The notes under the pieces were generated by a model. That model was not told where the DNA came from. It saw nothing but the letters and a program-made list of their open reading frames with translations, and did no database searches. DNA of 64,000 bases, taken from assembly GCA_032718475.1 (NCBI GenBank), contig JAUCBJ010007084.1, forward strand, positions 22,524 to 86,523. The letters run 5' to 3'. Of the stretch, positions 19,782 to 58,523 are shown piece by piece (the stretch's first letter is position 1; the number at the start of each line of letters is the position of its first letter). Position numbers and translations under genes: made by a program. Origin of the DNA: Nemertoderma westbladi (lineage: Eukaryota > Animalia > Xenacoelomorpha).

Positions 19782-19822
19782 TGGTACGTTTCGATATATT
19801 ACAAAATAATCATCATCAGCCA
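19782..19822 (-). ncRNA. Minimal type I hammerhead ribozyme-like motif (left arm)
   Basis: TGG CTGATGA T GATTATT-ttgt-AATA-t-ATC GAAA C GTA CCA. Confidence 0.6.
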
Positions 19823-20006: not shown

Positions 20007-20047
20007 TGGCTGATGATGATTATTTTGTAATATATCGAAACGTACCA
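20007..20047 (+). ncRNA. Minimal type I hammerhead ribozyme-like motif (right arm)
   Basis: Same sequence as the left arm on the opposite strand: CUGAUGA, stem II, GAAAC-GUA, short stem I TGG/CCA. Confidence 0.6.
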
Positions 20048-20268
20048 TGGGATTATTTAGTTGTTCGTTAATATTGCTTTTCTTGATTAAAATACTGTAT
20101 GTGGTACAGCAAAACAAATGTCCCTTCTACTATACGCAGTAACAGCAATCAGCCTAATGTACTACTGTACTATTGTACGCGACCAGTGAATACCGTAATC
20201 TAAACTTAACAGCCTAAGAATACTCTCAATGTCCTACTGTACGCGGTAGGCCTACAGCAGACAAAATA

Positions 20269-20278
20269 TACGCATTAC
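20269..20278 (-). other. PBS position of element B (GTAATGCGTA), non-canonical
   Basis: Immediately after the 5' LTR, no TGG start, complementary to LTR-internal 21364-21373. Confidence 0.55.
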
Positions 20279-22419: not shown

Positions 22420-22424
22420 GCCCT
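22420..22424. repeat. Right target-site duplication (GCCCT) of element B
   Basis: Matches 2358-2362. Confidence 0.95.
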
Positions 22425-23841: not shown

Positions 23842-24503
23842 TATTGGAAGTATAGTTACATAATCATTGCTACTAGAGGGAATACAACAGAGTTTATTGT
23901 TAGTTGTGAGGAGATTTGAGTGTTTTTTGTCTGCCCTTTTGGCTCGACAACGCTCTAACCTCCTACCCATAGCCTAAGATCTAAGGTTTCTTTAATGACA
24001 CACTGCTTTCTTATCTAAATTTTTGCCGAAATAAAAACGATTTTTGGGCTAAACTGGCTGTGAGTCTAAAATACTCACCTTTTGGTCCCAAACTATTATC
24101 AGAAAATAAGCAGTCAAGAATTAGTAATAAATATAGGGAAGTCTATTTTTGACGTAACTTATTGAAACAAGACCGTGTAAAATTTAATTAAATTTAAGAA
24201 AGGCTCGCGAGTCTTCCGTTCTCTTGTCTTTCTAATTTTAAGTTCCACCCGACTGTACCCTGAAATCTATTCACTGGAGAAAATTTAAAAAATTTTCAAA
24301 TCCAAAATGGATTGTCTAAAATTTTGAAAATGTCTCAATATTGTGAGTTTCAAGTAGAATTCCATTTCTTTTACCTACAAATCCCGCTCCTATGTGACAC
24401 ATAAGGGTACTACCCTCAATGTTCACATATAAAGACAATGGAATTCTACCGCTGTCTTTACTACAGTGTACAGGTACGTGGAAATCTATTTGTAAACTCC
24501 TTA

Positions 24504-33224: not shown

Positions 33225-34037
33225 TTCGGTAGTTGTAAGTCAAGTAAAGTATGAGTGTCAAAGTATCAAATTTACCGTATTTATATCTAAACGGTACTAA
33301 TTACAGTCATATAAAATTAGCCTACCGGCCGATTTTATAGCAAATGGATAAAATTCGCCTAGCAGCCAATTTTACAGCAAATAAATGTCACGGAATAAGT
33401 ATATAATAAAATTAGCCTATCGGCCAATTTTATAACAAATAAATCGGATAACGATATACGTTATCAAAATATAAATCAAACACAAATAATTACGGACTAA
33501 TTCAGCAATAAACAAAGAAATCGTACAGAATGCATAAGTACTTTAGACAGTGAAACCCACAATAATTTTAACTAATACGGTAATGCCTAACTGATTTATG
33601 CAACTTTTCAAACTTACCCACTCCAATAATTCTCCAGAAAAACAGATTCCCAGATACAAACCGGACGTGAACCTTTCCGTTTCCAGCGTTGCGGACGAAG
33701 TGCGATTTTTCCCAACCAAAGTTGTTGGGTTATCTATCTCCCAAACTTGCTAAACACGGTCTTTCTCTCGTTGCAGTCTAGAAATGAGCTCTGAATCCTG
33801 AAAAACAAAAGAGTTTGGTTTTACTTTTACGAAAATTTTGTACCGGTACAATATGGTATTTAAACCCTTTTTTTTAAACACCGGTATTCAATTCCAAATA
33901 TTTTACACGCGTTTCAAATCAAAATTTTTATTTCAAAATTAGCACTTAGCTAATCAAATACAAATTTGACCTCAAAATACAAATTTTCAAACAATTTTAG
34001 TCCTACTAAACCGTAGTTCAGCAAAACATATTCCTAC

Positions 34038-34960
34038 TAAATTAGGAAATATGTTAAATAATACCATATTCCTACGAAATGGAAGAGACGGGACTAATAC
34101 CTGCAATGTCCTACTGTAAAGTCTGTGAATCAAAGCATAATACGACCTTCTCACCAAAACAGTAAACTCTAAGTAAACAAACCTATTGCAGTATTGGTCT
34201 CTTATAACCGGTGAGGCAGAAAACAGCTGTCTAACCTTCAGGCGATGGGCGAATAACTAAGGATGATATTGCGGGTTGTCTCTTCCTACATTCCTCCGAT
34301 GTTCCCGTCTATTGCTGCGGTCCGCTACCTAGCCTGCCATCCATCTTTCAGTTGGGTTCACCGTGGTGAAACATAGTAAAAGGCAGATGTGGCGAATACT
34401 TCTATCTTTATTACAAAATTTAAACGATAACTAATATACAATAACATTTACAAAGTTAAAGTAGTGAATAAGTGAATAACTAAGTGAAGTATATAGAAGG
34501 TTACTATCAGATAACTAATGAACAAATTGCACCTTTTATAGCAAATTGGTGCTGCAAACAATCGAGAATATTCTATGAGTTATATTGGGTTTTAAAGATA
34601 ATCATTGGTCCAGCAAACACATATCTTGTACGACATTGGTTACTATCAGATAACTGCAATCATATTGGTTAATCTACCTTAAGCAGATGCAATTAAATCG
34701 TAGCGGTCAATTTGAATGAGTTGAAATTTAGCACAAAAAATAATTCGCACTTGCTAGGATTCGAACTCAACACCTACTGAACGATTTTCCAGCGCATAAC
34801 CGACTGAGCTACTGAACCACTTGATCAACATTGTACAGCTATAGCTATTGTATAGCTATAGTAAAGACAAATGAGGACTTAATGTAATCTTTATAACAAG
34901 TTTATTCCAACAAATAAAATTTTTGAAAATCCACGGCTTTTATGAGGATATAATTCTATA
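34038..34960 (-). repeat. 5' LTR of element A (~923 bp)
   Basis: Homologous to the C LTR from TATAGAATTATA to the conserved GTAGGAATATG; lacks C segment 40365-41378. The inner boundary is inferred from C. Confidence 0.8.
34735..34818 (-). promoter_or_regulatory. tRNA-like Pol III cassette in the A LTR
   Basis: Box A TAGCTCAGTCGG, box B GAGTTCGAATCC, then T6. Confidence 0.7.
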
Positions 34961-39611: not shown

Positions 39612-41556
39612 TATAGAATTATATTCCCTAAATGCCGTGGATTTCAAAATTTTATTTTATTCGAATTAACTTTGTAAAGATTGCTTTGAGTTCTCATTCG
39701 TATTGGTTCTATCATTTGTACATCTATCGGTCAAGTGGTTCAGTAGCTCAGTTGGTAGAGCGTTGGAAATTATATGTGTAGTAGGTATCGAGTTCGAATC
39801 CTAGTAAGTGCGAATTATTTTTTGTACAGAATTTCAACTCATTTAAATTAACCGCTACAAATTAATTGCATTTGTCTGTACCAATGAGGCTGTAGTTATT
39901 TGATTGTAACCAATGTCGTGCAAGTTATATATTAGCTGGACCAATAGCTATCTTTAAAACCTTGTTAGAATCTATAGAACAATCGAGAATTTTCTCGATT
40001 GATTGCGGCACAAATTTAGTATATAAAGGTGCGATTTCGTTCATTAGTTATCACACTTACACAAACTTCTTATACAATCTATTATATCAATATTCACATC
40101 TATTCTGTCGTGCTTAGTTTATTTCAGATTACATTGTACATATTATTATAATCTTTTGTAATAAAAGTTAGAAATACTAGTCACATCTCAGCCCTTTTCT
40201 ATCTGTTTTACTATGGATTCACTACGGTGAACAAACTCAGGGACAGGATGGCCGGCTAGAGATCGGGCCGCAGCAATGAACGGGAACATCGGGGGAATGT
40301 AGACGAGAGACAACCCGCAATACCATCTAGAGTTATTCGCCCATCGCCTGAAAGGTTAGACAGCGTTCGATCCTTGCTACCTAAGTGTAAGACCAAAAGA
40401 TCAAAAGGTAGACGTAGTGACACGCTGTAAGCCTAAAATTACATCATAGGGACTGTACTGTCTTGATTCAGGAAAAACCGCAGTAGACCTTCATATTCCT
40501 ACGGGGGGGAGGGAGAGAGAGCAGAGATACTAGTACGCAGATAGGACGTAGGCACACCGGTACAAGGCATACACATTGGTTAGGGTGCAGCAAACTGTAC
40601 GCTTAACTCTTGCTAAGTACAGGTGCGTCTGTGACTATTTGCCGTACAACGGTGTCCATTACATCAGAACTTGTAGGCTAGGAGGGTTGCTGTGTTTTCA
40701 CCTGAATTGGGATTGTACCGTTCAGGCGGTAGGGCAGTTTACACTAGGCGCAAATAAATTGAAGCTATTAGGGATACTAACATCTACCGTGTCCCCGCCA
40801 ACGCCCTAATAGGAAGTTACCTGGACTACCTGGGTGACTAAAATTCTAGATAGGAGCCAGGATAGCTATTAGTAACTGTACGCCTACAGTAGTAAACTAA
40901 CACATCTCTTCTTAGTATCAGGGACCTGGTACCTAAAATTGCCGAATTCTGGGCGTAGTATTAACCTTATGCCTGAATTTGAGTCCTGGAAATACGCAAG
41001 AGGGGAAGGAACCTTATCATTCGTGAGTATTGGACCTACAAGTTACAAAATTAGAATATTTGTAAAATGCACACCGTACCCAGTAATTATATATGTGAAG
41101 GAGCAAAACTGCTTTGACCGTTCAGAATTAACACACGCGCGTTAGAAATTATTTACACCTCAAAATATATAAAATTAACTTTCGTCCTTACTGCACTTTG
41201 CTCGCTAGTTAGACATCTCCAAATCTCTGCCTCTGTACCTAGCTAGCGTCCCTTTGCCCAACCATATAAATCACACCGCGGCAAAGTATACGAGCCCCTT
41301 AGTCCGTCAGCGAGTCAGCCTGATTTTAGGATTCGCTGCGCGGGATTTTGTTTCATCGAAGTTTGTCTGCTCGTAGACTGTTTTCTGCCTCACCGGTTAT
41401 AAGAGATCGATACTGCAATATATTCGCTTACTTAGAGTTTACTGTTTTGGTGAGAAGGTCGGATTTATGATTTGATTTACAAACTTTACAGTAGGATATT
41501 GCAGGTATTGTTACCGTCTCTTCCATTTAGTAGGAATAGGCGTATCTCTTCAATTA
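39612..41556 (+). repeat. 5' LTR of element C (1945 bp)
   Basis: Direct repeat of 56588-58523 with about 5 substitutions and two indels; TATATAAA near 40019, AATAAA near 40160. The 3' end could be 41552 instead. Confidence 0.93.
39737..39823 (+). promoter_or_regulatory. tRNA-like Pol III cassette in the C 5' LTR
   Basis: Box A TAGCTCAGTTGG (39744), box B GAGTTCGAATCC (39790), T6 (39818-39823); no credible acceptor or anticodon stems. Confidence 0.75.
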
Positions 41557-41567
41557 GTAGGAATATG
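41557..41567 (+). other. PBS position of element C (GTAGGAATATG), non-canonical
   Basis: First bases after LTR identity ends; conserved in A (34027-34037); complementary to 40492-40502. Confidence 0.55.
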
Positions 41568-43374
41568 TTTTACTGAACTACGGTTCGGTAGGACTAAAGT
41601 TGTTTGAAAATTTTGTATTTTGAGGTAAAAATTTGTATTTGATTAGCTAAGTGCTAATTTTGAAATAAAATTTGATTTGAACCGCGTGTAAAATATTTTT
41701 TGGAATTGAATACCGGTGTTTAAAAAAGGGTTTAAATACCATATTGTACCGGTACAAAATTTTCGTAAAGTAAAACCTAACTCTTTTGTTTTTTCAGGAT
41801 TCAGAACTCATTTCTAGACTGTAACGGGAGCAAGACCGTGTTTAACAAGTTTGGGAGATAGATAACTCAACAACTTTGGTTGGGAAAATCGCGTTTCGTC
41901 CGCAACGTTAAAAACGGAAAGGTTCACGTTCGGTTTGTATCTGGGAATCTGTTTTTCTGGAGAATTATTGGAGTGGGTGAGTTCGAAAAGTTGCATAAAT
42001 AAGTTAGGCATTACCGTATTAGTTAAAATTATTGTGGGTTCCACTGTCTCAAGTATTTATGCATTCCGTACGATTTCTTTGTTCATTGCTGAATTAGTCC
42101 GTATTATTGTATTTAATTTACCTTTTGATAACGCATATCGTTATCCGATTTATTTGTTATAAAATTGGCCGCTAGGCTAATTTTATTATATACTTATTCC
42201 GTGACATTTATTTGCTGTAAAATTGGCCGTTTAGGCTAATTTTATCCATCTGCTATAAAATCGGCCGGTAGGCTAATTTTATATGACTGTAATTAGTACC
42301 GTTTAGATATAAATACGGTAAACTCGATACTTTGACACTCACTTTACTTGACTTACAACTACCGAAATGAGTGACAAACAAGACTATACAAAGAATACAC
42401 CTACCGACTATGACTCGTGTGACGCGGATAAGTCAGCAGCGGAAGGACAACAGGGGAAGACTCGCGAGCCTACCGAACCTACACCGTGTGCGTCACCAGT
42501 ACATCCAACGGGAGTACCGGATGCCGTAGTACGAGGCGACGGCAGGACCGAGGACTTTCTAACTGTTCCGCAACCTAGATACAGGGAAACGGAAATGGTA
42601 AGTTCAGCAGGAAGCACAGAAAGTGTGGTTAGAAGCGTCGGAGGATATATGGCGCATATAACCAGGAGTATTGGGGAAGGCCAACGCACATTAGACGAGT
42701 TGACCGCTCCGATGTCTCGATTCGAATTCTACACCCTCCAGGTTAGAGTGCAAACTAGAGTACACAAGTCCGTAGATAACCTAATTGGTCTACAAGATCT
42801 AGCTAGACAGAGACAGGACATGGATACTCAACTTAGAATCCTCGAGAAACTTATGATCGCTAGAGAGAAACTGATTCAGTTTAAGTCGACGATTAGACAG
42901 ATACAACAGGAACAAGCGGACCAGTTGTTAGGTGAGTCAGTTTCGGACGAATTATTACAACCCGAGGAAGAACAGGAACAGTACCGACTGGATGGACAAT
43001 TGAAACACCTGACGGACCACTTACGCATGTGCGGCGAAGACGTCGGCGATTTGGAAACCATGCCGGAATATACGAGGGAAACTTCATTCGCACAAATCGA
43101 ATCGGCACCGGGAATACTAAATCAATCGCTGGTAAGTATTCGTAGCGAAATCTGCGAGGGAAGTATGGTCACGTCGGAAGTTGCTCGACAACAGCAAGAA
43201 TTCTACCAACAACAACGAGAAATCGAGGAACAAGCTCAACTTCTAGTGATGCAGGCAGCAGTGGAGGAAGAGAAGCTGCGCGTTGTAAATGTAGCGAGAA
43301 TCTCTCATCTACAGGAACAAGCTGAATTAGAAGCAGCTGAAGTAGAAAGGTTAGAGGTAGACATCGCCCAACAA

Positions 43375-43620
43375 ACGGCAGCGGTTGATTTAGCGCAACG
43401 AAACGCAGCGGTCGAGTTAGAGCGACAGATGGCAGCGACTGATTTGGAGCGACAAAACGCAGCGGCTGATTTGGAACGACAAAACGCAGCGGCTGATTTG
43501 GAACGACGAAACGCAGCGGTCAAGTTAGAGCGACAAATGGCAGCGGCGGAATTAGAGCGACGAAACGCAGCGGCTGATTTAGAGCGACGAAACGCAGCGG
43601 CGGAATTAGAGAGAGAAAGA
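43375..43620 (+). repeat. 27-bp coding repeat (AAADLERQN) in C gag
   Basis: About nine 9-aa units; fewer copies in A. Confidence 0.85.
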
Positions 43621-44294
43621 TTAGTTTCGGAAGCACGGGCCGAAATGAAAACACGGCAAATAAAGGCTCAATCTGCTATACGACAAGCGAAGTTTGAGGC
43701 GCAACGACAACAAACGGAACAATGAGAGAAGACAGCTAAACTTCATTTCGAACTTGAGAAGAAGGCGAGAGAAGTAGCCGAAGCCAAGGAAAATCTGGAT
43801 CTTCTAGCCCGCATCGATCAATGAGATCTCGAGACGGACATGACTTGGACCAGATAGAGGTAAGACATCGCCAAATTCAGGAACGGAAGAAGGAAGGAAG
43901 CGTAGGAGCACCCGGACGGGAACGACAATTAGTAAAAGACTTGTGTCAACGATTCCCACAGGTAACTCATATGTTTGCACCAGTTACGACTAAGGAACCT
44001 GTTTCGATTGCGGGTAGTAGTAACATTTCTCCTATCCATGGTGCGACGGAACACAGGTTTGTTATTCCGGACGAGTTTACACCGCCAAGAGCAACGTCGT
44101 CGCCCATTCCGAAAGTCAAGGTAAGTAACCCACCGATTACGGATCGTAGTAGTTTGTTGACTGGACCTGCACTACTGACGACTAAACAGGTGAGTCCACC
44201 GTCGACACCTAAACCCGTTACACACTACGCTTACCCAATGACGTTTCGACCCACAAGGCCAGTTGTTTCAAATGCTGTCATTCGCCCACCGGTT

Positions 44295-44601
44295 CAGTTT
44301 ACATCGCAATCTACGACTTCGAGGAAGACTTGTGAGCCTACCGAACAACGGAGAACAGCGACGCGACCGTTCAATCAGTTTACATCGCAATCTACGACTT
44401 CGAGGAAGACTTGTGAGCCTACCGAGCAACGGAGAACAGCGACGCGACCGTTCAATCAGTTTACATCGCAATCTACGACTTCGAGGAAGACTTGTGAGCC
44501 TACCGAACAACGGAGAACAGCGACGCGACCGTTCAATCAGTTTACATCGCAATCTACGACTTCGAGGAAGACTTGTGAGCCTACCGAACAACGGAGAACA
44601 G
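44295..44601 (+). repeat. 81-bp coding tandem repeat (~3.8 copies) in C gag
   Basis: cagtttacatcg at 44295, 44376, 44457 and 44538. Confidence 0.92.
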
Positions 44602-47600
44602 TGGACGATGTTCCGAAACGGAACGTTAGAATTCGAACGACGCAACGGACGCGAGCACGTCGACCACCATATCCAGATGATAGTAGTACTTCGAGCGAAT
44701 CGGATTACCCGAAACGCGAGGTATTTAGAACAGGGGCGGCCAATGAATACAAACGCGAGCGTTCAGACAACTCCTTTGCAGACAATCCTCCACAGAATAC
44801 ACCAACACAGAAGGCGTTACAACCAACGAACGCAATTAGTACACAACAGTTCGCCGACATTCTGCGACCAGTTGTCAATAAGTTGGCTCAGATCGAGGAA
44901 CGTCTAGAGGAAGGTTACACCGACAGTTCGAGAAATTCCGAATTCGAACACAATAGACACCCGAAGGAACCACAAAGACCGGTACCTTCAAACCCCACAT
45001 CGTATCAGGGAAAAGCGCCAAGAAGGGATATCAACCAGATTACCAACCAAGGACGCGAAACTCTGAACGTTGCCGAGGAGATAGCGAAATTCGCAGCCAG
45101 ACAAGGATTGCCGGTACAACAACCACCGAAGTTTTCCGGTAGCTCAAAACACTGGCATACTTTCGTAGACTATATCGAATCCCAGATCGCCGTGTGCGCC
45201 TTTACATCACGGGAGAAGTTCAATTACTTGCTCCAAACGTTGTCAGGAGAACCTAAACGTTTGGCGGAGACTTTCGTCGGTGTACCGGACGCTTTCGAAC
45301 TAGCGTACGATCGTTTAACTTCGATATACGGAGGTACAGTGAGCATGGCCAGGTCAGTAATAGAGGAACTCTGTAAGGGAGGGGCTATCACTAAACCCGT
45401 CGACTTACTAAAACTAGCTGACGAGATCAAGAACGCTATCACTACCTTAAGATCAATTGGACAACTTGATTACGGGAATACCCCTACAGTCCTATTAAAG
45501 ATCATAGGACGACTCCACCATCGACTACGTCGGGAGTGGAGAAAGGTCGAATACCAGCGAGAGGAGCGGGGAGGATTCTTAAAATTAGAAGATGTGTACC
45601 TTTTAATATCCAGGGAGGCGGTAGTAGAAACTCGATCTAACTACACCGACCAGCACATCGTGGCAGAAGGGATCACATTGCCATCCTCCAACCGACAAAA
45701 ACCCCAGACAACATCCACTAAGACGGCCACTTACACCACACCGACGGAATTACGACAATTCTCGGACGGTAGTAGGGTATCTGCGCCCATTGGGACAAAA
45801 CAGACGAGACAGCAACTTGGTACCGACTTTAGTGGCTGCCAATACTGCGAGCATCTAGGTAAGCGGTATATCGGTCACAAGTTACGAGGTTGTCGACAAT
45901 TTCGCGAGTTAAACTCGGAAGAACGACGGCTGCAAATACGGCCACTGGACTCTTGTTGGCGGTGTACGCGACACGGACACGTCCGTAAAGATTGCCCAAA
46001 TACCGACACTTGTCCATCCTGTGGACGCAACCACAACGGTCTGCTCCACACAGACAGCCACACGCCGACGAAACGCTTCGCCAGGGAACACCCGGAAGCA
46101 GCAGCGAGATGTGATGCGGCCTACCGAAAACGAGAATCGAAAACGACTCCAACCTTCGTGACCCATATTGAGGATTGCTTCTCAGAACAATCTGGATCGT
46201 CGGACGAAGAATCAGAAGACGACGACGTATATTCCAATGGAGACGAACAACCGTCGATTGCGCTTCTGACTACTGACCAACTGAAGGGATTCAGTGTAAT
46301 TCCGATTAAGGTTACTGGCACCAAGGGGAGCAAAAGAATCTACGCGATTCTAGATTCAGCCTCATCTCATAGCTACGTGGATGAAAAGATAGCTGACGTA
46401 GTGACGGACCTTAAACAAGGTAAGTGCGTCAGTTATACAGTAAGTAGTATGCACGGACAGCGTGCAATGCCAGTGACACGAGTTAAGTTGGACTTAGACT
46501 CTCTTCTTCCAAAATCGCAGCACAGCGAGAGGGAGAGGTCTTTGTTGCCCTTTAAAGATCTAACCTTTGCGGCCACGAAGGACTTTAGTAACCTACTAGG
46601 TCCAGTGCCGGAACAATCTCTAGAGGACCGTAAGTATTTCAGACACCTTGGTGTACCCGAATGTCCTGTCAATTATAGATCGGTAGCAATGCTGATTGGG
46701 ACGGACCAATTCAACCTACATCAGGTGTGGGAAACCAGACCATCGGCAGTTGTAGCGGGAAACGCATACGCCTGCAGAACGCCGATAGGGTGGTATACTC
46801 GAGCGCCTGTGCGCACACTAGACGTAAGTGACGAGGAAGACAATGTACAGAGTACATGTAGTTTATTAACTACAAATTCAATTCATTCCTTTTCACACGA
46901 CGTGAACCATACTACACTACAGACGACAAAACATGACAGACGTGTAACTAGTATGATAAGTCACAAGGAGCAGCTAACCCACCAGGTGAGTTTAGAACTT
47001 GGGGAGAAGACGAGTCAGCTAGAGATTCCATCGACGACAGATGATAGGCTTGCGAGTCTACCTACCCCAATAACCTCAACAGTGCCCGTCGATATCGATG
47101 ATGACGCGTTGAAAATTCATCAGTTGGAACAAGCCGCTTTGGACAAAGAATTAACGGAGAAGACTATCAGGTGGTTAGAACAAGATACAGCTGAACCTGG
47201 TAGCTACGAACCTTGTATGTCGGAACAGGAGAAACAATCTTTGAAGATCATGGAAGATACTATCCACCAGACGAAAGACGGACATTATGAGGTAGGGATG
47301 TTATGGCGTAGCCAAAGCCCTAAACTCATAAACAACTATCCACTAGCCTTGAGACGTCTACACTCAATACGGCAACGTCTATTAAAGGACGAGAAAGCCC
47401 ATCTGCAGTACAACACCCAGATGGAGACGTATTTGACTAAAGGATACGCTATCCGAATGACGAACCCGGAGATAGTGACTGACCAAACATATTACTTGCC
47501 ACATCACTATGTGAGACACCCCGACAAACCAGACAAAGTACGCGTAGTCAACGACTGTGCGGCTCTGTTTGAGGGAATGTCCCTCAATAGTGAGTTGATG

Positions 47601-50600
47601 GATGGACCAAACATGAATAATTATCTAATGGGGGTGATTATGTGCTTCCGTCAGCGTCAAGTAGCCTTTACTTGCGACGTCGAAGCGATGTTTCACCAAG
47701 TGAAAGCGTTAGAGTGAGACAGAGACAGTTTGCGGTTCCTCTGGTACCCGGAAGGAGATTTAAGTCTACCACCGGCGACTTACCAAATGCAAGTTCGCGT
47801 TTTCGGTGCCAGAGACAGCCCAAATTGCACGATGTACGCCCTAAAGCAGGCCGCTAGAGATCAGAAACACCTATATGACCCAGAGATAATTAAAATCGTA
47901 GAACGGGACTTTTACGTCGATGACGGTTTACAGAGTTGCGACACAGTAGAACGTGCTACAACAGTAGCACATCAATTACGGGACTGCTTAGCGGGCGGAG
48001 GTTTTAACCTCACCAAATTCGCCTCAAACAGTGCCGAATTAGTAGACTCATTCGGGACGACTGAGCGTGGAAGTGGTGACATAGACCTAGAGTTCGAACC
48101 ACTACCGACGACTAAGGTGTTAGGGCTCTTTTGGGACCCAAACACAGACAACTTCCGAGTGAAAGTGCGACTGGACAGTCAAGAGAACACACTGACAAAG
48201 AGATCATGCTTGTCAAAGTTGAGCCGATTGTTCGATCCGTTAGGATTCATCAGTCCAGTGATACTGCAAGCCCGCATTTATATGCGCAGTATATGGAAGG
48301 ATGGACTAACATGGGACGAGCCGATCTCATCAGACCAAGTGGACTTATGGAAGACCTGGGAGGCAGAATTATCTTCGCTAGAGGATTATTTCATACCCAG
48401 GATTTACTTTCCATTACGAAGTACATTTCCTGACAACTTGGAACTACACTGTTTTTCTGACGCCAGTGACAACGGTTTTGGTGTGGCAGCGTACTTGCGC
48501 AGACAAGTAGAATCAGACGAGTTCGATGTTTCGCTCATTACTTCTAAGGCTAAGACCATGCCTACTAAGTATATGACGACACCACGAGCCGAGCTACAAG
48601 CCGCAACCCTGTCAACCACCATCGTGAACCTCATACAGACAGAACTACAGTCGAGTTTACAGATATTTTATTGGACTGACGCGACGTTGGTTTTATTTTA
48701 CATAAACAACGACACACTCGAATTCAAGACATTCGTAGCTAACCGTCGCGCGGAAATTCTAGATCGTTCAATAAAAGAGGATTGGCGACATTGTCCCGGA
48801 CCACAAAACCCAGCTGATATTGCGTCGCGAGGAATGATGCCTGAGGAATTCTGTAAACCGGAGAACAAAGAATTTTGGCAACACGGACCACAATTCTTAC
48901 AAGGTTCAACACTACATTGGCCGCCACTATACGACAACAAATCTAACACCATCCCCAAGGACGCCGAAATCAAGAAACCAAAAAAGGGGAAGACAAAGAA
49001 AAGGACAACGGCGGCAAAACTCAAGAAAAAACCGAATGCGAAATGGAAAGATATAACTTCAAAGGTCAAGAGAGGAAGACTTGCGAGCCTTTCTACACCA
49101 GACATATCGCCAGACTGTCAGCCAGACACATTACTAGACAGTCGACTAGACATTTTGTCAGAAACATCACAAAATGTTCTACCGGACATTAGTAATGTAT
49201 TGACAAACAGTAAAGCCGCAGTTTCCCTATTGGATCGGCCTTCTATTGACAAACAACCAGATACGTTACCAGACGTATCGCCAGACACATTACTAGACAG
49301 TCGACCAGACATTAGTAATGTATTGACAAACAGTAAAGCCGCAGTTTCCCTATTGGAGCGGCCTTGTATTGACAAACTACCAATTTTGACACGCTTGAGC
49401 AACCATAAGCACGGTGAAACCTCATGTATTACAGATGTGGGTAGTACCTACGCTAATGTAAATACAGGTGTTACTTTGCGCTCAAGAGACATACCGAACT
49501 TGCAACCTATGGTGAGACCTGGGATTAATGTCGGCAGGAAAATAAGTTTACCAAAACCTGCTGACCCCATAGAGTTCAAACCACCATTAACGATCGACTT
49601 ACAAAGTACTGACGATCAAGGTAAGAAGACGAAGAAGGACAAATTACTTGTAGACCCGGACGGATCAACAGTCAACAAGGGAATACTTACCGGCGGACCC
49701 GTGGGCCCTTCTAGTAATTCAAAACCTTCCAAAATCTCCATTAACTTACCTGATGACGTCACAAATACTCACGTAGATCGTATTGTAAACTTAACAGATT
49801 CTTGGTCAAACGCTTGCCGAAAATTAGCGTGGATTGTACGTTTTGTACAATACGTAAAAGGCAAACGGGACTTTACACGTCGACTTACATTGGCTGAGAT
49901 TGACAGGTGTGAAATTATATTAATTCGCCATTATCAACTGCGATATTTCGCGCGCGAATTCACATCTATAAATCAAGGCCTACCAATCAAGTCGTCACCA
50001 ATACTGAGTTGGAGTCCGATAATTTATAATGGCTTAATTTGTCATAAATCTCGGCTTCAAAACATTGACTTTAACACAAACTTTAGGTACCCAATAATAA
50101 TACCGCAACACCACGAACTACAACGTGCAATGATACTGGACGCACATCTACATCTGAAACACGCTGGAAGACACCACTGTCTTTCCTACTTACGTACTAG
50201 ATTTGTATTAATTAGACCCAGTAAAGCGTTAAGTTCAGTGACACGTACGTGTATTATTTGTAAAAAGGTACATTCTAGAATAGGTACCCAAGAAATGAGT
50301 GAACTACCACAAGCACGACTTCAAGCATTCAGACCACCTTTTACAGAGACTGGAATTGATTGCTTTGGTCCCATACATACGAAACGTGGACGTATACTAG
50401 TAAAACGCTGGGGACTGATTTTCACATGTATGTCCAGTAGGGCAGTTCACATTGAACGTGTGATGGATCTTTCCACCAACGCGTTTATACTAGCACTGCG
50501 GCGATTTATCGCTAGACGCGGACTAGTGAAATGCTTGTACTCAGACCAAGGGACAAACTTTGTTGGTGCTCGGAATGAGATTGCTAGAGCCTTTAAGAAA

Positions 50601-51939
50601 CTAGATCATGATCAAATCTCGAACGAACTGCAACCTCACAAGATTGTTTGGAAGTTCAATCCTCCAGATAGTCCTTGGAGAGGCGGAGTCTGGGAGAGAT
50701 TGATTAGATCTATAAAGACAGCCATGGCAAAGGTCATTCCAGTAAACCACATACTGACAGACGACCAACTGACAACATTGTTTGTTGAAATCGAGGCAAT
50801 ACTAAATACTAGACCAATAGTATTAGTACCCGATGACAAACAATCTCAGTTCCCTTTGACACCGGCACACCTGCTTATGCAGGCACCGACCACTTTGACG
50901 CCGATTTCTATTCCAATAGAAAGCGACAGCTACGGTAGAAAAGCGTGGAAAATCACGCAACTACTGGCTAACAAATTCTGGGAAATATGGCAAAACCATT
51001 ATTTGCCCTCTATTTCTGCCAGAACAAACTGGTACAATAACACCCGCGCATTAAAGCCGGGAGATCACGTGCTGTTAGCGGAAGTGAATCTAAAAAGACG
51101 CTTCTGGATAACAGGTGTAATTTTAGCCACACATCCATCTATGGATGGAGTGACAAGGACTGTGACAGTACGGACAATTGACGGTCGTACAGTAGACAGA
51201 CCGACTCAACATCTCGTACTTCTTGAAGAGACTCGTAACGAGTCTGGAGACTACAAATCTCCACCTAATACTAGTAAATAATTAGGAGTTTACAAATAGA
51301 TTCCACGTACCTGTACACCGTAGTAAGGACAGCGGTAGAATTCCATTGTCTTTATATGTGAACATTGATGGTAGTACCCTTATGTCTCACATAGGAGCGG
51401 GATTTGTAGGTATAAGAAATGGAATTCTACTTGGAACTCACAATATTGAGACATTTTCGAAATTTTAGACAATCCATTTGGATTTGAAAATTTTTAAAAT
51501 TTTCTCCAGTGAATAGATTTCAGGGTACAGTCGGGTGGAACTTAAAATTAGAGAAACAAGAGAGGAAGACTTGCGAGCCTTTCTTAAAAATTTTTTAATT
51601 AAATTTTACACGGTCTTGTTTCAATAAGTTACGTCAAAATAGACTCCCCTATATTTATTACTAATTCTTGACTGCTTATTTTCTGATAATAGTTTGGGAT
51701 CAAAAGTGAGTATTTTAGACTCACAGCCAGTTTAGCCCAAATTCGTTTTTATTTCGGCAAAAAATTTTAGATAAGAAGCAGCGTGTCATTAAAGAAACCC
51801 TAGATCTTAGGCTATGGGTAGGAGGTTAGAGCGTTGTCGAGCCCAAAGGGCAGACGAAACTCTCACGTCTCCTCACAACTAACTACAAACTCTGTTGTAT
51901 TCCCTCTAGTAGTAATGATTATGTAACTACACCCTAATT

Positions 51940-54900
51940 ATGGAGAAAGGGATACAAGGAGAGCCGAGATGGGGATATGATATCCAAGAGGAGGCAGCAG
52001 CGCCATTCGAAAGATTTGGAGCCAAGGATTACACTATATTCGGTATAAAAGAATTATCGGAAAGTACAGCGAAACTCGCGAGAACTAAATATGACTCGAA
52101 TGTATTAAAGAGAAGGCAAAACGCATTAAACGAAAGAATCGAAAGTTTGCGCCAAACCTTCAACGAACTTTACCCGTACGATGCTTTGTGTGATACGGGA
52201 GACATTAGCGAAGACCCCGATACTGAAATTAGTCGTTTGTATCATACCATGCAATACCTAAAGGCGCACGAACCTATGCCCGCGGTACGCGATGAATTCG
52301 ATGGAATGCATCTTTACAGACGAACTCGAGGGGACGATAGAGAAACCAAGGAAGCATTTTCAGTTTATAAACTTTATTATCAATGCGGTTCTTGTATGCG
52401 CGAACAACGAAATGCGATTCCGATGCGTTTGAATAAGGAAAATCCCGAACCGATATTGGCGAGGTGTTCGAATCATCAACAACTACGCTACCAGGAAGGA
52501 GGGTATCCTTTATCGAATCCATATCATTCATTTGCTATGACCGGACCAAAGGCGGGAGAAACTGTCATTTACCCACCTAAGGTTGTTGAACCCGATGTAT
52601 TTGAACTTACGCTGGACGAGGCGAATCAGTCAACCCGCGAAAAGAAAGAAGCTCTTAGCCTATACAGAGCCTATAAGGCTTTCGAGAAAGGTGAGATGGA
52701 AGAATGGGGTGGAAGACTCGCGAGCCTACCTTGCCATTGGACGTCACACGATCAAACTTCAGCTAAGGAGATGACACCGGAAGTTTTCGAGAGCATAAAC
52801 TTTGCTCAAAACGTTATTCAGAGACTACAGATTGCATCCCCGGAGAGGCCAAGAGAAATGCAACCGTATAGTACTTCAACTACGAAACCATTGAGTACGA
52901 CACTCAATTTCCCTATTAGTATACCAGTCCGACAGGATACGACGTACGAAATACCCATCGTGGATCATCCAGAAATCATTTCAAACTTGGAGTTTCTTCC
53001 TGCAGTTGTTTTCAGCGATATGAGTAAGATATATGATTTACGTAGACATATTACTCAAAAGGTCGTGTACAACGTTCCACCTCATATTCAAGACTTTAAG
53101 GAACTGGATAGAGCTGGTGCCGATATAGCTCCGAGTAATCTGAAAGGATATCTAACCAAGACGATTCGTTTATGGATTGGAACCGGAACCTTCGAGTCGG
53201 ATACAGATATTGCCGCAGATTGGCGAGGTAAGGTTATTCGTTTCGAAGATGATAAGGACATAGAGAAGATTTGGCAACCTTCGGAAGAATTGTTGGATGA
53301 ATGGACTAGGACGTTTAGATCGTTTCAGGAAAACGGTTATATGTTTTATGATAACGAGGGCGGCAGTCATCAGCAGAGTTTGACTTCTAAGACTATACAG
53401 ATTAGAGCGGCGGACGGAGTCCTGCACGTTTTCAGTAGACAGAGGAGCGACAAACGAATGCCGATACCTCCAGCGAATACAAAGCGACACCATCTTATCA
53501 CCGATATAGTAAAGAAGATGGACCAAGCTTGTAATATTGACGCTAGAATGCAACCGAAGATGGTAAGAAACATGATTTTAGATAAAACTGTTGTAAAGGT
53601 TGGATCAGGAGTAAGGGAGGATTTAATTAGCGACTTCGCCGGCATGACGGACAGCGATGACCGACTACCGACACCATACGTCGACACTCGACCTCTTATT
53701 CTGTGGTCTATAGAACAGGGATATTTTCGTGAGTATAATACTCAGAAGACTGGAACTGGATACATTTCCTACCTGTTATTCAATTGGGATTATAAGGAAG
53801 GTAAGAGAAACAAGTATATTGAAACTTATGGAGAAGGTGATACTCCAGATATGAGTGAGTTTGAATCACAGCTTAAATGGAGAGGATGCGTGTATTGGGC
53901 TATTACGTCACCTCCAAGAGCGGTCTTACAATATTATTTAGCAATAGAGTCGTCAGTGAATGTTTGCCTAATCGCCGACATTGTGTCTCGGACTCTCAAA
54001 AGACATCCACTTTGTCTCGGAGAAGATCATACGTTCTACATGGAAGGGAGAATTCGTACCGACGTGTTTAGACGATTCCTTGAACCCTTCTACAACTCCG
54101 ACGCTCAGTGTAATGCCTTTACTCGAGCAGGATTTAGTATATTTCGAGACGTGTATCTTCGCTGTGCGGGATCTCTTATCGAAAGACCATCTATGTTTAC
54201 ATTGTTACCCTATGAAGGAGAACGTATCGTGGAAATTACGGATGAATCACGGCAGACGCGCGCGCCTATCGGTCACCTTGGTGATGAATTCGAAGTAACT
54301 ACTACGATCGCCGACGATCCTTTAGAGGAACTTCTTGAGATAGAAAGGAACCTCCCGAAGAAATCTCAGACGGAGATTCGACAACTTGAAGCAACAGATG
54401 CTATAGTTTGTATACAACCTTCAGAAACCTACCAACCCATAGACCCAGATGATTACGATTATAGTATGGGAGGAAGCGCTCGACCGATTGGAGATCTTAT
54501 ATACGAACGAGTGTGGTACCCTGCTAATACGATGTGTAGTAAATGTGGCGTCGCTGGACATCATATGGCAAAGTGCAGTGGAAAGCACATTACTACGACT
54601 CAGCTAATCTGTGGATGGTGTGGGGATCAAGGGTCTCATACCTTTTATACTTGCTGGAGATTTATGGCTCAGTGTACTTATTGCAATATAAAGGGACATC
54701 GAGCATCTGAATGCCAACTAAGGGACATACCTTATGAACACGAATCTGTAAAACTCGTGAGGAAGTTATTTGATGAGTGGGAAGATTTAGCCGACGAACA
54801 TGTATCAGCACAAAGAAGACGGTTTCCGATGAGAGCGCATCTCGGATTTTGGGCGGTAAATCCTCAGACGATGATGTCGGAAGGATATATCTCCGCTATG

Positions 54901-55665
54901 CCCCAATATGACGAACTTATCGAGGTTGTCGATATTTTGCCCCACGACAGCGGATTCCGAGTGGTGCGCGAGTATCTGTTACAAATTCACCCGGATAACA
55001 AAAACACGTGGAATTTTCAGAAAGTCGTTAATCGGATTACGTATGGTGAATTCGATCGTTTCCGAACTGAAAAGCGGAACAAGGGAGCTTGGTTAACCGT
55101 CGCATGGGCGTACCGAGCCGCGTTTTACCACAAACGTATACGAGCGAGCGTATTCGAGGAAGAAGAGGTCCTAGAGGCGACAAATATACCAGCCACTCCG
55201 GTTGCGCCGTCTGCACGTCACCCTCGGGAGGACGGGCAGGGTAGGATCATACGGGTCCAGAAGGTGGGCCAACAATTGAAGAAAATTATTAATGTAGAAG
55301 AACGCAAGGGAGTTGAGCCGACCATTCGAGTCACTCGGGATACGGTATCACTTCCAAGAGAACCAGTAGGAGGATCGGGACATACACCAGCTGATCAACA
55401 GGGGGCGCAAGCTACTCTTGGGTCTGCGTCGTCCGCCTTTCGCGCGTTCCCAGACGTTCTACCAATTGTAGTGACGACTGATCGGTCACGAGGAATTGGT
55501 CGAGGTTTTGGGATGCCAAATAGACGAATTTGCGAGGAAATGGTCGCACCGTCTCTCAACGTCCCAAGTAAACCAGTGACTCGCCCCATTAGTCCCATAT
55601 CGCGAGCAAAGTCACCTGTGCGTAGTTTTCGAGGACGCGGCAGGGCTCGATCAACTAAGCGATAA
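51940..55665 (+). CDS. Element C ORF3, 1241 aa: putative DEDDy-type 3'-5' exonuclease + CCHC zinc-knuckle protein
   Basis: Intact ORF. ExoI D471/E473 (FYDNE), ExoII D561 (KVGSGVRED), ExoIII Y666-x3-E670; three CCHC-type knuckles; RGRGR tail; no evident signal peptide or TM helix. Confidence 0.85.
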   Translation: MEKGIQGEPRWGYDIQEEAAAPFERFGAKDYTIFGIKELSESTAKLARTKYDSNVLKRRQNALNERIESLRQTFNELYPYDALCDTGDISEDPDTEISRLYHTMQYLKAHEPMPAVRDEFDGMHLYRRTRGDDRETKEAFSVYKLYYQCGSCMREQRNAIPMRLNKENPEPILARCSNHQQLRYQEGGYPLSNPYHSFAMTGPKAGETVIYPPKVVEPDVFELTLDEANQSTREKKEALSLYRAYKAFEKGEMEEWGGRLASLPCHWTSHDQTSAKEMTPEVFESINFAQNVIQRLQIASPERPREMQPYSTSTTKPLSTTLNFPISIPVRQDTTYEIPIVDHPEIISNLEFLPAVVFSDMSKIYDLRRHITQKVVYNVPPHIQDFKELDRAGADIAPSNLKGYLTKTIRLWIGTGTFESDTDIAADWRGKVIRFEDDKDIEKIWQPSEELLDEWTRTFRSFQENGYMFYDNEGGSHQQSLTSKTIQIRAADGVLHVFSRQRSDKRMPIPPANTKRHHLITDIVKKMDQACNIDARMQPKMVRNMILDKTVVKVGSGVREDLISDFAGMTDSDDRLPTPYVDTRPLILWSIEQGYFREYNTQKTGTGYISYLLFNWDYKEGKRNKYIETYGEGDTPDMSEFESQLKWRGCVYWAITSPPRAVLQYYLAIESSVNVCLIADIVSRTLKRHPLCLGEDHTFYMEGRIRTDVFRRFLEPFYNSDAQCNAFTRAGFSIFRDVYLRCAGSLIERPSMFTLLPYEGERIVEITDESRQTRAPIGHLGDEFEVTTTIADDPLEELLEIERNLPKKSQTEIRQLEATDAIVCIQPSETYQPIDPDDYDYSMGGSARPIGDLIYERVWYPANTMCSKCGVAGHHMAKCSGKHITTTQLICGWCGDQGSHTFYTCWRFMAQCTYCNIKGHRASECQLRDIPYEHESVKLVRKLFDEWEDLADEHVSAQRRRFPMRAHLGFWAVNPQTMMSEGYISAMPQYDELIEVVDILPHDSGFRVVREYLLQIHPDNKNTWNFQKVVNRITYGEFDRFRTEKRNKGAWLTVAWAYRAAFYHKRIRASVFEEEEVLEATNIPATPVAPSARHPREDGQGRIIRVQKVGQQLKKIINVEERKGVEPTIRVTRDTVSLPREPVGGSGHTPADQQGAQATLGSASSAFRAFPDVLPIVVTTDRSRGIGRGFGMPNRRICEEMVAPSLNVPSKPVTRPISPISRAKSPVRSFRGRGRARSTKR

Positions 55666-56580
55666 AAGGGAGGGCAAGGGTGGACGTAAGACTCGTGGGC
55701 CTTTCTTATGATTTTGTGATTTATTTTGAATTATATGTTTTATATTTAGAAAGTTTTGTATTCTGGGAAAGACTTATATTTAGTAAAACTTATATTTAGT
55801 AAAACTTATATTTTATATTTGTGCTTATTCCGAACTTATGCAATTTGTATTGTTCCGAATTTATGAAATTTAGAGAGTTTATATTTAGAAGGAACTTATA
55901 TTTGAAAGATTTATGTTTCATATTTGAAGATGCAAAGGAGTTTATATTATTCTAAACTTATGCAGTTTATATCTATATTTAGTAAGACTTATATTTGTAA
56001 GAATTTATATTTTATATTTGTGATTATTCCGAACTTATGCAATTTATATTATTCCGAACTTATGCAATTTATATTGTTCCGAATATTATGCAATTTATAT
56101 TTTATAAGCAGTATTTGTATTTACAGTGAAATAGAAAGTTTTATAGATAGAAAATTTTGTGCTCAGAAAGACTCATATTTGTAATTATTCCAAACTTATG
56201 CAATCTACATTTAGGTACGAAAGTATTTGTAATTACTTGAATTTATGCAATATTTGAGATGCAATAGTAGATGGAAGACTCGCGAGCCTTTCTTATTGTT
56301 TCATTTATTTGTATTTGTAATTGTTTGAATTTATGCAATATTTGAGATGCAATAGATTTATATTGGTGAATTTAATTTAGATTTATATTGTACTTACTTA
56401 GTAAAGCCTTAAATACGTAAAGTTTGAATTTGTAATTATTTTGTATTGAATCATTACGTAGAAAGGAAGTATTGTTTGAAATTTAATTGTAAATATGTAA
56501 GTACGCCCTAAGTATTCTATAGTTTGATTGATTATTGGTGAAAACCGTATATTTTATGCACGATAATATCCTGTTTTCAT

Positions 56581-56587
56581 GGAGCGG
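56581..56587 (+). other. Short polypurine tract (GGAGCGG) of element C
   Basis: Abuts the 3' LTR start, as in B. Confidence 0.8.
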
Positions 56588-58523
56588 TATAGAATTATAT
56601 TCCCTAAATGCCGTGGATTTTCAAAATTTTATTTTATTCGAATTAACTTTGTAAAGATTGCTTTGAGTTCTCATTCGTATTGGTTCTATCATTTGTACAT
56701 CTATCGGTCAAGTGGTTCAGTAGCTCAGTTGGTAGAGCGTTGGAAATTATATGTGTAGTAGGTATCGAGTTCGAATCCTAGTAAGTGCGAATTATTTTTT
56801 GTGCAGAATTTCAACTCATTTAAATTAACCGCTACAAATTAATTGCATTTGTCTGTACCAATGAGGCTGTAGTTATTTGATTGTAACCAATGTCGTGCAA
56901 GTTATATATTAGCTGGACCAATAGCTATCTTTAAAACCTTGTTAGAACCCATAGAACAATCGAGAATTTTCTCGATTGATTGCGGCACAAATTTAGTATA
57001 TAAAGGTGCGATTTCGTTCATTAGTTATCACACTTACACAAACTTCTTATACAATCTATTATATCAATATTCACATCTATTCTGTCGTGCTTAGTTTATT
57101 TCAGATTACATTGTACATATTATTATAATCTTTTGTAATAAAAGTTAGAAATACTAGTCACATCTCAGCCCTTTTCTATCTGTTTTACTATGGATTCACT
57201 ACGGTGAACAAACTCAGGGACAGGATGGCCGGCTAGAGATCGGGCCGCAGCAATGAACGGGAACATCGGGGGAATGTAGACGAGAGACAACCCGCAATAC
57301 CATCTAGAGTTATTCGCCCATCGCCTGAAAGGTTAGACAGCGTTCGATCCTTGCTACCTAAGTGTAAGACCAAAAGATCAAAAGGTAGACGCTGTAAGCC
57401 TAAAATTACATCATAGGGACTGTACTGTCTTGATTCAGGAAAAACCGCAGTAGACCTTCATATTCCTACGGGGGGGAGGGAGAGAGAGCAGAGATACTAG
57501 TACGCAGATAGGACGTAGGCACACCGGTACAAGGCATACACATTGGTTAGGGTGCAGCAAACTGTACGCTTAACTCTTGCTAAGTACAGGTGCGTCTGTG
57601 ACTATTTGCCGTACAACGGTGTCCATTACATCAGAACTTGTAGGCTAGGAGGGTTGCTGTGTTTTCACCTGAATTGGGATTGTACCGTTCAGGCGGTAGG
57701 GCAGTTTACACTAGGCGCAAATAAATTGAGGCTATTAGGGATACTAACATCTACCGTGTCCCCGCCAACGCCCTAATAGGAAGTTACCTGGACTACCTGG
57801 GTGACTAAAATTCTAGATAGGAGCCAGGATAGCTATTAGTAACTGTACGCCTACAGTAGTAAACTAACACATCTCTTCTTAGTATCAGGGACCTGGTACC
57901 TAAAATTGCCGAATTCTGGGCGTAGTATTAACCTTATGCCTGAATTTGAGTCCTGGAAATACGCAAGAGGGGAAGGAACCTTATCATTCGTGAGTATTGG
58001 ACCTACAAGTTACAAAATTAGAATATTTGTAAAATGCACACCGTACCCAGTAATTATATATGTGAAGGAGCAAAACTGCTTTGACCGTTCAGAATTAACA
58101 CACGCGCGTTAGAAATTATTTACACCTCAAAATATATAAAATTAACTTTCGTCCTTACTGCACTTTGCTCGCTAGTTAGACATCTCCAAATCTCTGCCTC
58201 TGTACCTAGCTAGCGTCCCTTTGCCCAACCATATAAATCACACCGCGGCAAAGTATACGAGCCCCTTAGTCCGTCAGCAAGTCAGCCTGATTTTAGGATT
58301 CGCTGCGCGGGATTTTGTTTCATCGAAGTTTGTCTGCTCGTAGACTGTTTTCTGCCTCACCGGTTATAAGAGATCGATACTGCAATATATTCGCTTACTT
58401 AGAGTTTACTGTTTTGGTGAGAAGGTCGGATTTATGATTTGATTTACAAACTTTACAGTAGGATATTGCAGGTATTGTTACCGTCTCTTCCATTTAGTAG
58501 GAATAGGCGTATCTCTTCAATTA
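56588..58523 (+). repeat. 3' LTR of element C (1936 bp)
   Basis: Direct repeat of 39612-41556. Confidence 0.93.
56714..56800 (+). promoter_or_regulatory. tRNA-like Pol III cassette in the C 3' LTR
   Basis: Identical box A, box B and T6. Confidence 0.75.

What the first reader, a model, noticed from the sequence alone, without database searches (positions are those of the whole stretch)
42455..56289. Family A/C has its own dispersed quasi-palindrome GGAAGACTYGCGAGCCT at equivalent positions
Seen in C at 42455 (gag), 47046 (reversed, pol), 49074 (RH-IN linker), 51564 (pol-ORF3 spacer), 52711 (ORF3), 55686 and 56273 (3' UTR). Counterparts in A lie near 33120, 28611, 26596, 24201, 23054 and 26. 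It is read as GKTREP or GRLASL depending on frame. Like the B motif it centres on CGCG and occurs in gag, linker, ORF3 and 3' UTR, but with different arms. Inference: a per-family 'barcode' co-evolving with an element-encoded reader.
Basis: partly seen in the sequence, partly recalled or inferred. Interest (0 to 1): 0.85.

Follow-up and report, generated by a model that had tools for sequence, protein, structure and literature searches.

The report
Retrotransposon tiled with family-specific RNA hairpins
Two related jumping-gene families each carry nine or more evenly spaced copies of their own version of a short near-palindrome, which likely folds as a hairpin in the element's RNA and would let an RNA-binding protein made by the element recognise its own transcript; the binding is untested.

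Summary
The motif is real. All 13 listed sites are there, plus a four-copy cluster in gag and a weak ORF3 site in both A and C: 10 matches in C against 0 in 150 simulations. A, B and C are BEL/Pao LTR retrotransposons with a non-env ORF3 (RNase D/EXD2-like exonuclease fold plus three zinc knuckles). (1) The centre is YGYG on the sense strand, not a symmetric CGCG: 11 of 21 free pyrimidines are T, 0 of 18 free guanines are A. (2) The site at 47046 is not reversed. (3) The B and C motifs are homologous: they share a core and three aligned positions, and differ only in the arms. Sites are evenly spaced (p about 0.01). In B the flanks pair site by site (p about 1e-4), which points to RNA stem-loops; in C this signal is weak. 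Best reading (0.45): self-recognition hairpins on the element RNA, read by ORF3 or Gag knuckles. An oriented dsDNA site like those of VANC remains possible (0.2). No reader was shown, and no third family or ORF3-less control could be fetched.

The parts
39612..58523 (+). Element C, BEL/Pao LTR retrotransposon; LTRs 39612-41556 and 56588-58523 (99.1% alike), ends TA..TA, TTATT on both sides inside a TTA microsatellite; in-frame stops at 43723-43725 and 47715-47717
42455..42474 (+). C motif site, 5' gag, loop CGCG
44323..44585 (+).
47043..47062 (+). C motif site, linker before RT, loop TGCG, G.U variant (not reversed); aligns with B 14291
49074..49093 (+). C motif site, RNase H-integrase linker, loop TGCG
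51564..51583 (+). C motif site, non-coding pol-ORF3 spacer, loop TGCG, with predicted AU-rich lower stem
52711..52730 (+). C motif site in ORF3, loop CGCG; aligns with B 7664
54251..54270 (+). Weak C motif site in the ORF3 linker between exonuclease and knuckles, identical in A (1449); aligns with B 6067
55686..55705 (+). Degenerate C motif site just after the ORF3 stop, loop CGTG
56273..56292 (+). C motif site, 3' UTR, loop CGCG
51940..55665 (+). ORF3 of C (1241 aa from the first Met): unknown N-terminal part, DEDDy-like exonuclease domain, three Cys/His zinc knuckles; candidate reader
45690..46050 (+). Gag zinc-knuckle region of C (approximate bounds); alternative reader
1..34960 (-). Element A, same family as C (88.6% alike), older and broken, ORF3 split by insertion of B; 11 motif sites at 23, 1449, 23051, 24198, 26593, 28610, 31118, 31202, 31286, 31370, 33117
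2363..22419 (-). Element B, sister BEL/Pao family nested in A's ORF3; LTRs 2363-4226 and 20279-22419, TG..CA ends, GCCCT duplication; nine motif sites at 4545, 6067, 7664, 8771, 10845, 14291, 15579, 16911, 18464
4743..8453 (-). ORF3 of B, 44% identical to ORF3 of C

Best explanation
The motif is a selected, family-specific 18-20-base near-palindrome placed every 0.6-3.4 kb along these BEL/Pao elements; it likely acts as the tip of a stem-loop (7-8 pairs, YGYG loop) in the element's sense RNA, which a zinc-knuckle protein of the element, most likely ORF3 and otherwise Gag, would bind so as to coat, protect and route its own 15-17 kb transcript towards packaging. Shown: the repeats, their spacing, their independence of reading frame, the sense-strand YGYG rule, the shared core with family-specific arms, site-specific flank pairing in B, and the domain make-up and purifying selection of ORF3. 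Inferred: that the RNA folds so in vivo (well supported for B, weakly for A/C); that knuckles read the loop guanines, by analogy to Rous sarcoma virus nucleocapsid on its UGCG loop; that stem differences give family specificity; and the downstream purpose. Sites in ORF3 and the 3' UTR would also lie on any spliced ORF3 message, so a general RNP mark fits better than a classical single packaging signal.
For: Not protein-driven: sites occur in all three frames and in non-coding DNA. Even spacing: CV 0.37, p 0.006 in C; CV 0.40, p 0.010 in B. Loop rule over 18 B and C sites: T at 13 of 36 pyrimidine positions, A at 0 of 36 guanine positions; where the transition is silent or non-coding, 11 of 21 against 0 of 18, p 2e-4, while CpG transitions between A and C are strand-symmetric (115:99 and 43:46). 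B arms: 55 Watson-Crick, 5 G.U, 0 A.C and 3 other cells of 63 on the sense strand. B flanks pair with their own partner better than with other sites' flanks (permutation p about 1e-4 or less at four flank lengths, both strands); C flanks do so weakly and only on the sense strand (p 0.011-0.022 at 20-30 bases, 0.13 at 15; antisense 0.34-0.57). Five of 7 B sites folded have z of -2.4 or lower. Across genomic copies of B, the 62-base hairpin at 6046-6107 has 2 variable positions against 20 of 169 in the flanks (p 0.035), and the commoner change at each keeps the pair. Arms differ between A and C at 2 to 4 of 112 positions against 11% overall. ORF3 profile hits EXD2 (E 5e-8), trypanosome RNase D, Lin28, retroviral nucleocapsids and Egalitarian; pairwise dN/dS 0.15-0.17, like pol.
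Against: The A/C hairpin is weak: none of 6 C sites and 1 A site folded reaches z -2 (range -1.8 to +0.8); core energies are 0 to -4.2 kcal/mol; 7 of 9 C sites keep an A.C mismatch on the sense strand that would be G.U on the antisense strand; C flank pairing is not significant against random positions (p 0.10-0.35). Three of 11 A sites break the YGYG rule (CATG, CACA, TCTG), which I read as decay after insertion. At third codon positions alone the conservation of the B hairpin is not significant (2 of 20 against 14 of 57, p 0.14), and that stretch was picked after seeing that it folded well. Orientation bias alone also fits a dsDNA reader, because VANC motifs are arrayed in one orientation (PMC5735166). 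Only two families were compared, so a link with ORF3 is untested.
Confidence: 0.45

Rival explanations
1. Oriented dsDNA binding sites for an element-encoded or host factor that keeps the integrated copy active, as VANC does for VANDAL transposons; the CpG-containing centre would make binding sensitive to methylation.
For: The A/C motif is conserved in sequence but folds poorly. It is family-specific. VANC motifs are family-specific and co-oriented (PMC5735166 section 8). A shows excess CpG transitions, so the host probably methylates these copies (inference).
Against: A dsDNA site does not need flanks that pair site by site or pair-preserving changes. The recognisable domains of ORF3 are of single-stranded nucleic-acid-binding type. 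No site lies in either LTR. The N-terminal 430 residues of ORF3 are unassigned, so a DNA-binding domain there is not excluded.
Confidence: 0.2
2. RNA-RNA linkage sites without a protein reader: being self-complementary, the sites pair between the two genome copies or between distant sites, and this enforces concerted change within a family and discourages mixed dimers.
For: YGYG stays self-complementary through G.U pairs whereas CRCR does not. Predicted duplexes are stronger within than between families: B-B -26.1, C-C -18.9, B-C -12.3 kcal/mol.
Against: That ranking follows from sequence similarity alone. A conserved A.C or G.U pair at one position in C, and invariant A.U and C.G pairs in both families, look like recognition features more than maximal pairing. 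Local lower stems in B would compete with extended duplexes.
Confidence: 0.15
3. Sense-RNA hairpins read by a host protein (export, localisation or stability factor); ORF3 is unrelated to them.
For: The core ARACY-YGYG-RG is shared by both families in one host. Drosophila Egalitarian reads host and transposon stem-loops by shape (PMC13186709 passages).
Against: A host reader of the shared core would leave the outer arms free to drift site by site, yet they are uniform within each family and differ between families at aligned positions.
Confidence: 0.13
4. A neutral by-product: a short word copied around the element by template switching or local duplication.
For: Four copies did arise by tandem duplication in gag, and the two 3' UTR sites share flanking similarity.
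Against: Flanks of the other sites are unrelated, spacing is even, positions persist between families 44% alike in ORF3, arms are more conserved than the background and loop guanines never vary in B or C.
Confidence: 0.07

Closest known systems
BEL/Pao LTR retrotransposons (Belpaoviridae)
   Same: LTRs, 5-base target duplication, DUF1759 gag, Pao peptidase A17, integrase zinc finger and DUF5641 in BEL order; pol relatives 35-42% identical.
   Different: 19-20 kb long, about 1.9 kb LTRs, a 1240-aa non-env ORF3, dispersed motifs, TA..TA ends in C, and no TGG-type primer site after the 5' LTR.
DEDDy-exonuclease ORF3 of bdelloid Juno and Vesta LTR retrotransposons and Terminons (PMC5408684)
   Same: An RNase D-like DEDDy ORF3 downstream of pol.
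   Different: Here the host element is BEL/Pao, and ORF3 adds three zinc knuckles and a long N-terminal part. The paper's main text has 0 occurrences of stem-loop, hairpin or palindrom (supplements not seen). Direct homology to the rotifer ORFs was not tested.
VANC anti-silencing proteins and their motifs in Arabidopsis VANDAL transposons (PMC5735166)
   Same: Family-specific, co-oriented motifs inside an element that carries an accessory gene.
   Different: VANC motifs are 9-base non-palindromic dsDNA words, dense and mainly non-coding, in a DNA transposon. Here they are 18-20-base near-palindromes, one per 1-3 kb, mostly in coding linkers, with signs of RNA pairing; no VANC-like domain was found.
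Rous sarcoma virus Psi stem-loop C with nucleocapsid; dispersed packaging signals of RNA viruses (PMC5035970, PMC6281560)
   Same: A UGCG tetraloop whose guanines are bound by a zinc knuckle; many dispersed stem-loops with one recognition motif.
   Different: RSV has one 5' signal, and the same paper found the UGCG mutation did not lower Gag specificity in vitro. Here the sites run through gag, pol, ORF3 and the 3' UTR of a retrotransposon.
Trypanosoma brucei RNase D and Drosophila Egalitarian
   Same: DEDDy exonuclease fold; RNase D has a C-terminal zinc-finger domain; Egalitarian uses its exonuclease-like domain to grip RNA stem-loops.
   Different: Cellular proteins, 12-13% identical in the fold match, with Foldseek E only 2e-3 to 4e-3 on a model of mean pLDDT 59; no LOTUS-like domain was seen in ORF3.
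CERV of C. elegans Cer1 (PMC10309623)
   Same: An accessory protein of an LTR retrotransposon that acts on the element's own genomic RNA (abstract).
   Different: No sequence relation was tested, and the abstract names no repeated cis-element.

Membership tests
BEL/Pao LTR retrotransposon | Direct LTRs with a target-site duplication | tested here: met
   C LTRs 99.1% alike with TTATT on both sides; B LTRs with GCCCT duplication
BEL/Pao LTR retrotransposon | BEL-type gag and pol domains in the order PR-RT-RH-IN | tested here: met
   DUF1759, Peptidase_A17, Integrase_H2C2 and DUF5641; 453 proteins at E 1e-50 or better, the 120 listed all with PF05380
BEL/Pao LTR retrotransposon | TG..CA termini and a tRNA primer site | tested here: inconclusive
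   B has TG..CA, C has TA..TA; both leaders begin GTA, not TGG; no host tRNA set was available
DEDDy 3'-5' exonuclease (ORF3) | RNase D/EXD2 fold | tested here: met
   Profile hit to EXD2 at E 4.8e-8; all listed Foldseek rows are DEDD-family nucleases or polymerase proofreading domains, none at E 0.001 or better; Atlas lead PF01612 at 0.92
DEDDy 3'-5' exonuclease (ORF3) | Four acidic catalytic residues and activity | tested here: inconclusive
   By alignment D-x-E, D and Y-x-x-x-E, so the last Asp is Glu in B and C; activity not testable
VANC/VANDAL-type anti-silencing system | Family-specific, co-oriented motif | tested here: met
VANC/VANDAL-type anti-silencing system | Dense arrays mainly in non-coding DNA | tested here: not met
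   13 of 18 independent B and C sites are in ORFs, spaced 0.6-3.4 kb
VANC/VANDAL-type anti-silencing system | Element protein binds the dsDNA motif and causes hypomethylation | not testable with these tools
   needs EMSA, ChIP or methylome data
Retroviral-type Psi packaging signal | Confined to the 5' leader or gag, absent from spliced RNA | tested here: not met
   four or five sites lie downstream of pol
Dispersed packaging signals of RNA viruses | Many stem-loops sharing a loop motif on the genomic strand | tested here: inconclusive
   met for B, weak for A/C
Dispersed packaging signals of RNA viruses | Binding by the coat (Gag) protein | not testable with these tools
   no protein-RNA assay or prediction available
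Described RNA family (Rfam) | Match at the gathering score | tested here: not met
   0 matches in the window

The most novel reading that the evidence does not exclude
An animal BEL/Pao lineage carries its own RNA self-recognition system: an RNase D/Egalitarian-like ORF3 with three zinc knuckles binds YGYG-capped hairpins tiled along the element's transcript, and reader and hairpin stems diverge together family by family, an RNA-level counterpart of plant VANC anti-silencing that keeps related families from using each other's machinery.
Probability: 0.3. Interest if true: 0.85.

Novelty: new variant of a known kind. Interest (0 to 1): 0.68.

Why it matters
How LTR retrotransposons pick out their own RNA, and what their non-env third genes do, are both open questions. 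Here a 20-base cis-element comes in two natural versions with two natural candidate readers (ORF3 44% identical; Gag knuckle region 38%), so a simple cross-binding test with short RNAs can decide the matter. If it holds, it gives a function to exonuclease-type ORF3s, a case of concerted change at nine dispersed sites, and possibly orthogonal hairpin-protein pairs.

Tried and rejected
No host genome is held, so other families in this host could not be mined. No related locus was obtained: scans of viral contigs, metagenome contigs (52, 68) and prokaryote genome contigs (71, 81) all gave 0 confirmed loci. The ORF3-less control and the third ORF3-bearing family are therefore untested, and it is unknown whether the ORF3-like proteins P0001-P0015 lie in retroelements. 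Word-indexed searches with ORF3 found nothing; Pfam has no hit on either ORF3; a single-sequence fold failed (pLDDT 32). No RNA holder is listed for the element, which is no evidence on expression. Rfam gave 0 matches. Protein constraint as the cause was rejected (three frames and non-coding sites). CpG decay as the cause of the loop rule was rejected (strand-symmetric in these elements). The 'reversed' site was rejected. An 11-base complement between the C leader (41582-41592) and the first gag site is not kept in A, so I do not use it. Joints that re-anchor exactly at 47046 and 49074 in runs X1 and X2 (2 of 15 joints shown, of 33) fit a conserved island but also a match to another motif copy, and the tool warns about such joints: weak only. 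The pair-count test on 17 distinct sites (87% paired against 71% shuffled) mostly reflects the B versus C split and the structure came from these sequences, so it is not counted as independent. Look-ups of earlier findings by place, sequence and a first word set were empty.
Full report
Layout. Self-comparison and ORF listing show three BEL/Pao LTR retrotransposons. C lies at 39612-58523 (+), with LTRs 99.1% alike. A lies on the minus strand from about 34960 to beyond base 1 and is 88.6% identical to C over 14,145 columns. B (2363-22419, minus) is inserted into A's ORF3 with a GCCCT duplication. Pfam gives DUF1759, Peptidase_A17, Integrase_H2C2 and DUF5641. The nearest pol proteins in the database are 35-42% identical, and those with names come from marine animals, so B and A/C (56% identical in RT/RNase H) form a clade of their own. 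Contigs from three DNA runs of one organism cover C at summed depths of hundreds to tens of thousands with many variants, and two samples do so for B; this suggests many genomic copies, though the tool warns that summed depth is no copy number.

The observation. Every listed site is present. There are also four copies in an 81-bp tandem repeat in gag and a weak site in ORF3, in both A and C. C's internal DNA holds 10 matches with up to 2 mismatches; 150 Markov simulations held none. B has nine sites of its own motif. The sites fall in all three frames and in non-coding DNA, so the peptides GKTREP and GRLASL are by-products. Spacing is more even than random placement (C, gag cluster counted once: CV 0.37, p 0.006; B: CV 0.40, p 0.010). 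No site lies in an LTR, and the LINE fragment and the remaining DNA of the window hold none.

One motif, two versions. Aligned on the centre, 19 sites (9 B, 9 C, 1 A) share five invariant columns. A common core matches exactly 8 times in B and 11 times in C on the sense strand, while the full family patterns never cross-match at up to 1 mismatch. Three sites lie at aligned positions of the two families: 47043 with 14291, 52711 with 7664, 54251 with 6067. Five more lie in equivalent regions (5' gag, mid gag, RNase H-integrase linker, pol-ORF3 spacer, 3' UTR); B 15579 has no partner in C. So the outer arms and one inner pair changed together at dispersed, homologous sites. This concerted change is the surprising part.

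RNA or DNA. On the sense strand the central four bases of all 18 independent B and C sites are YGYG. Pyrimidine positions are T in 13 of 36 cases, guanine positions are A in 0 of 36; counting only silent or non-coding transitions, 11 of 21 against 0 of 18 (p 2e-4). CpG transitions between A and C are strand-symmetric, so mutation bias does not explain this. Three of 11 sites in the older copy A break the rule. The site called reversed keeps TGCG on the sense strand and only swaps an A.C pair for G.U. Orientation alone does not exclude a dsDNA reader, since VANC motifs are co-oriented (PMC5735166, section 8 read). The case for RNA rests on pairing. In B the arms vary by G.U and by two-sided changes; the unrelated flanks of each site pair with each other better than with flanks of other sites (p about 1e-4 or less, both strands); 5 of 7 sites folded have z of -2.4 or lower; and across genomic copies the hairpin at 6046-6107 varies at 2 of 62 positions against 20 of 169 outside (p 0.035; p 0.14 at third codon positions; stretch chosen after the fact). 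In A/C, the subject of the finding, the evidence is thinner: flank pairing appears on the sense strand only (permutation p 0.011-0.022 at 20-30 bases) and is not significant against random positions; none of 7 sites folded reaches z -2; 7 of 9 C sites carry an A.C mismatch. I carry the RNA reading over to A/C mainly by homology with B.

The candidate reader. ORF3 has no Pfam hit and no close relative. A profile of the three window copies found 11 proteins at E 0.001 or better among 1.84 billion; ten share the exonuclease region, the knuckle region or both, and one (P0011) shares only generic knuckles and was left out of the next alignment. That alignment (13 rows) shows exonuclease motifs, three Cys/His knuckles and a conserved C-terminal block. 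Its profile hits EXD2 (E 4.8e-8), trypanosome RNase D, Lin28, retroviral nucleocapsids including that of Rous sarcoma virus, and Egalitarian. A model of mean pLDDT 59 ranks trypanosome RNase D and Egalitarian first, none at E 0.001. Rough pairwise dN/dS between A and C is 0.17 and 0.15 for the two halves of ORF3, 0.13 for RT/RNase H and 0.14 for integrase. Gag has its own knuckles, so it is an equally available reader.

Mechanism. I commit to sense-RNA stem-loops read by an element-encoded knuckle protein (0.45; ORF3 about 0.3, Gag about 0.15). The loop guanines would sit in knuckle pockets as in the Rous sarcoma virus UGCG loop (PMC5035970, passages; the same paper found that loop dispensable for Gag specificity in vitro), and the exonuclease fold might grip the stem as Egalitarian's does (PMC13186709, passages). 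Binding every 1-3 kb would coat and route a very long RNA in cis, a role like that of CERV in Cer1 (PMC10309623, abstract). All of these steps are inferred. Rivals: an oriented dsDNA site (0.2), RNA-RNA linkage (0.15), a host RNA-binding reader (0.13), neutral copying (0.07).

Novelty. DEDDy-type ORF3s are known from rotifer Juno and Vesta elements (PMC5408684, part 2 of 5 and passages read); dispersed packaging stem-loops are known from RNA viruses (PMC6281560, abstract); zinc-finger RNase D from trypanosomes (PMC7797062, abstract). Six searches of the held library (listings only) showed no BEL/Pao element with this ORF3 and no retrotransposon tiled with family-specific hairpins. The library lacks most subscription papers and repeat-database entries, and no supplements were read, so absence from print is not established. 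Three unchecked notes of this scan describe dispersed palindromes in fungal retrotransposons; they are leads that the theme may be wider, not support. Verdict: a real, selected feature, a new variant of known kinds, interest 0.68, limited by having two families and no binding data.

Noticed in passing
window 41557-41600 and 20235-20278: Neither C nor B has a TGG-type tRNA primer site after the 5' LTR; both leaders begin GTA and carry a short hairpin followed by GTAGGAC, which may point to unusual priming.
   Followed up: partly
window 39612 and 58523: C ends TA..TA whereas its sister family B ends TG..CA; C sits in a TTA microsatellite, so the exact ends are slightly uncertain.
   Followed up: partly
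proteins P0001-P0010, P0012-P0016: An unnamed protein family with a DEDDy-like exonuclease, three zinc knuckles and a conserved C-terminal block, about 20% identical to ORF3, on metagenome contigs of 2-13.5 kb; context unknown.
   Followed up: partly
window 51940-53230: The N-terminal 430 residues of ORF3 include a block well conserved between B and C with a Cys-x2-Cys and Cys-x2-His pattern and no database hit.
   Followed up: no
window 19734-20095: A 360-base inverted repeat (81% self-complementary) in the 5' leader of B, possibly a MITE.
   Followed up: no
window 20397-20670 and 40364-41378: B's 5' LTR has about 275 bases that its 3' LTR lacks; A's 5' LTR lacks about 1 kb present in C's LTR.
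   Followed up: no
window 35241-39500: A LINE fragment (endonuclease domain) between A and C with a near-perfect 369-base tandem repeat at 37117-38253.
   Followed up: no
window 60428-61211, 63113-63445, 63548-64000: Tandem repeats of about 162 and 80 bases, and an ORF that runs off the window and by eye resembles an integrase core; no Pfam hit.
   Followed up: no
window 6067-6091 (run X1): Loose ends on both sides of the motif resemble a diverged version of the 7664 site whose flanks, read by eye, still pair in another register; it is not certain that both ends belong to one contig.
   Followed up: partly
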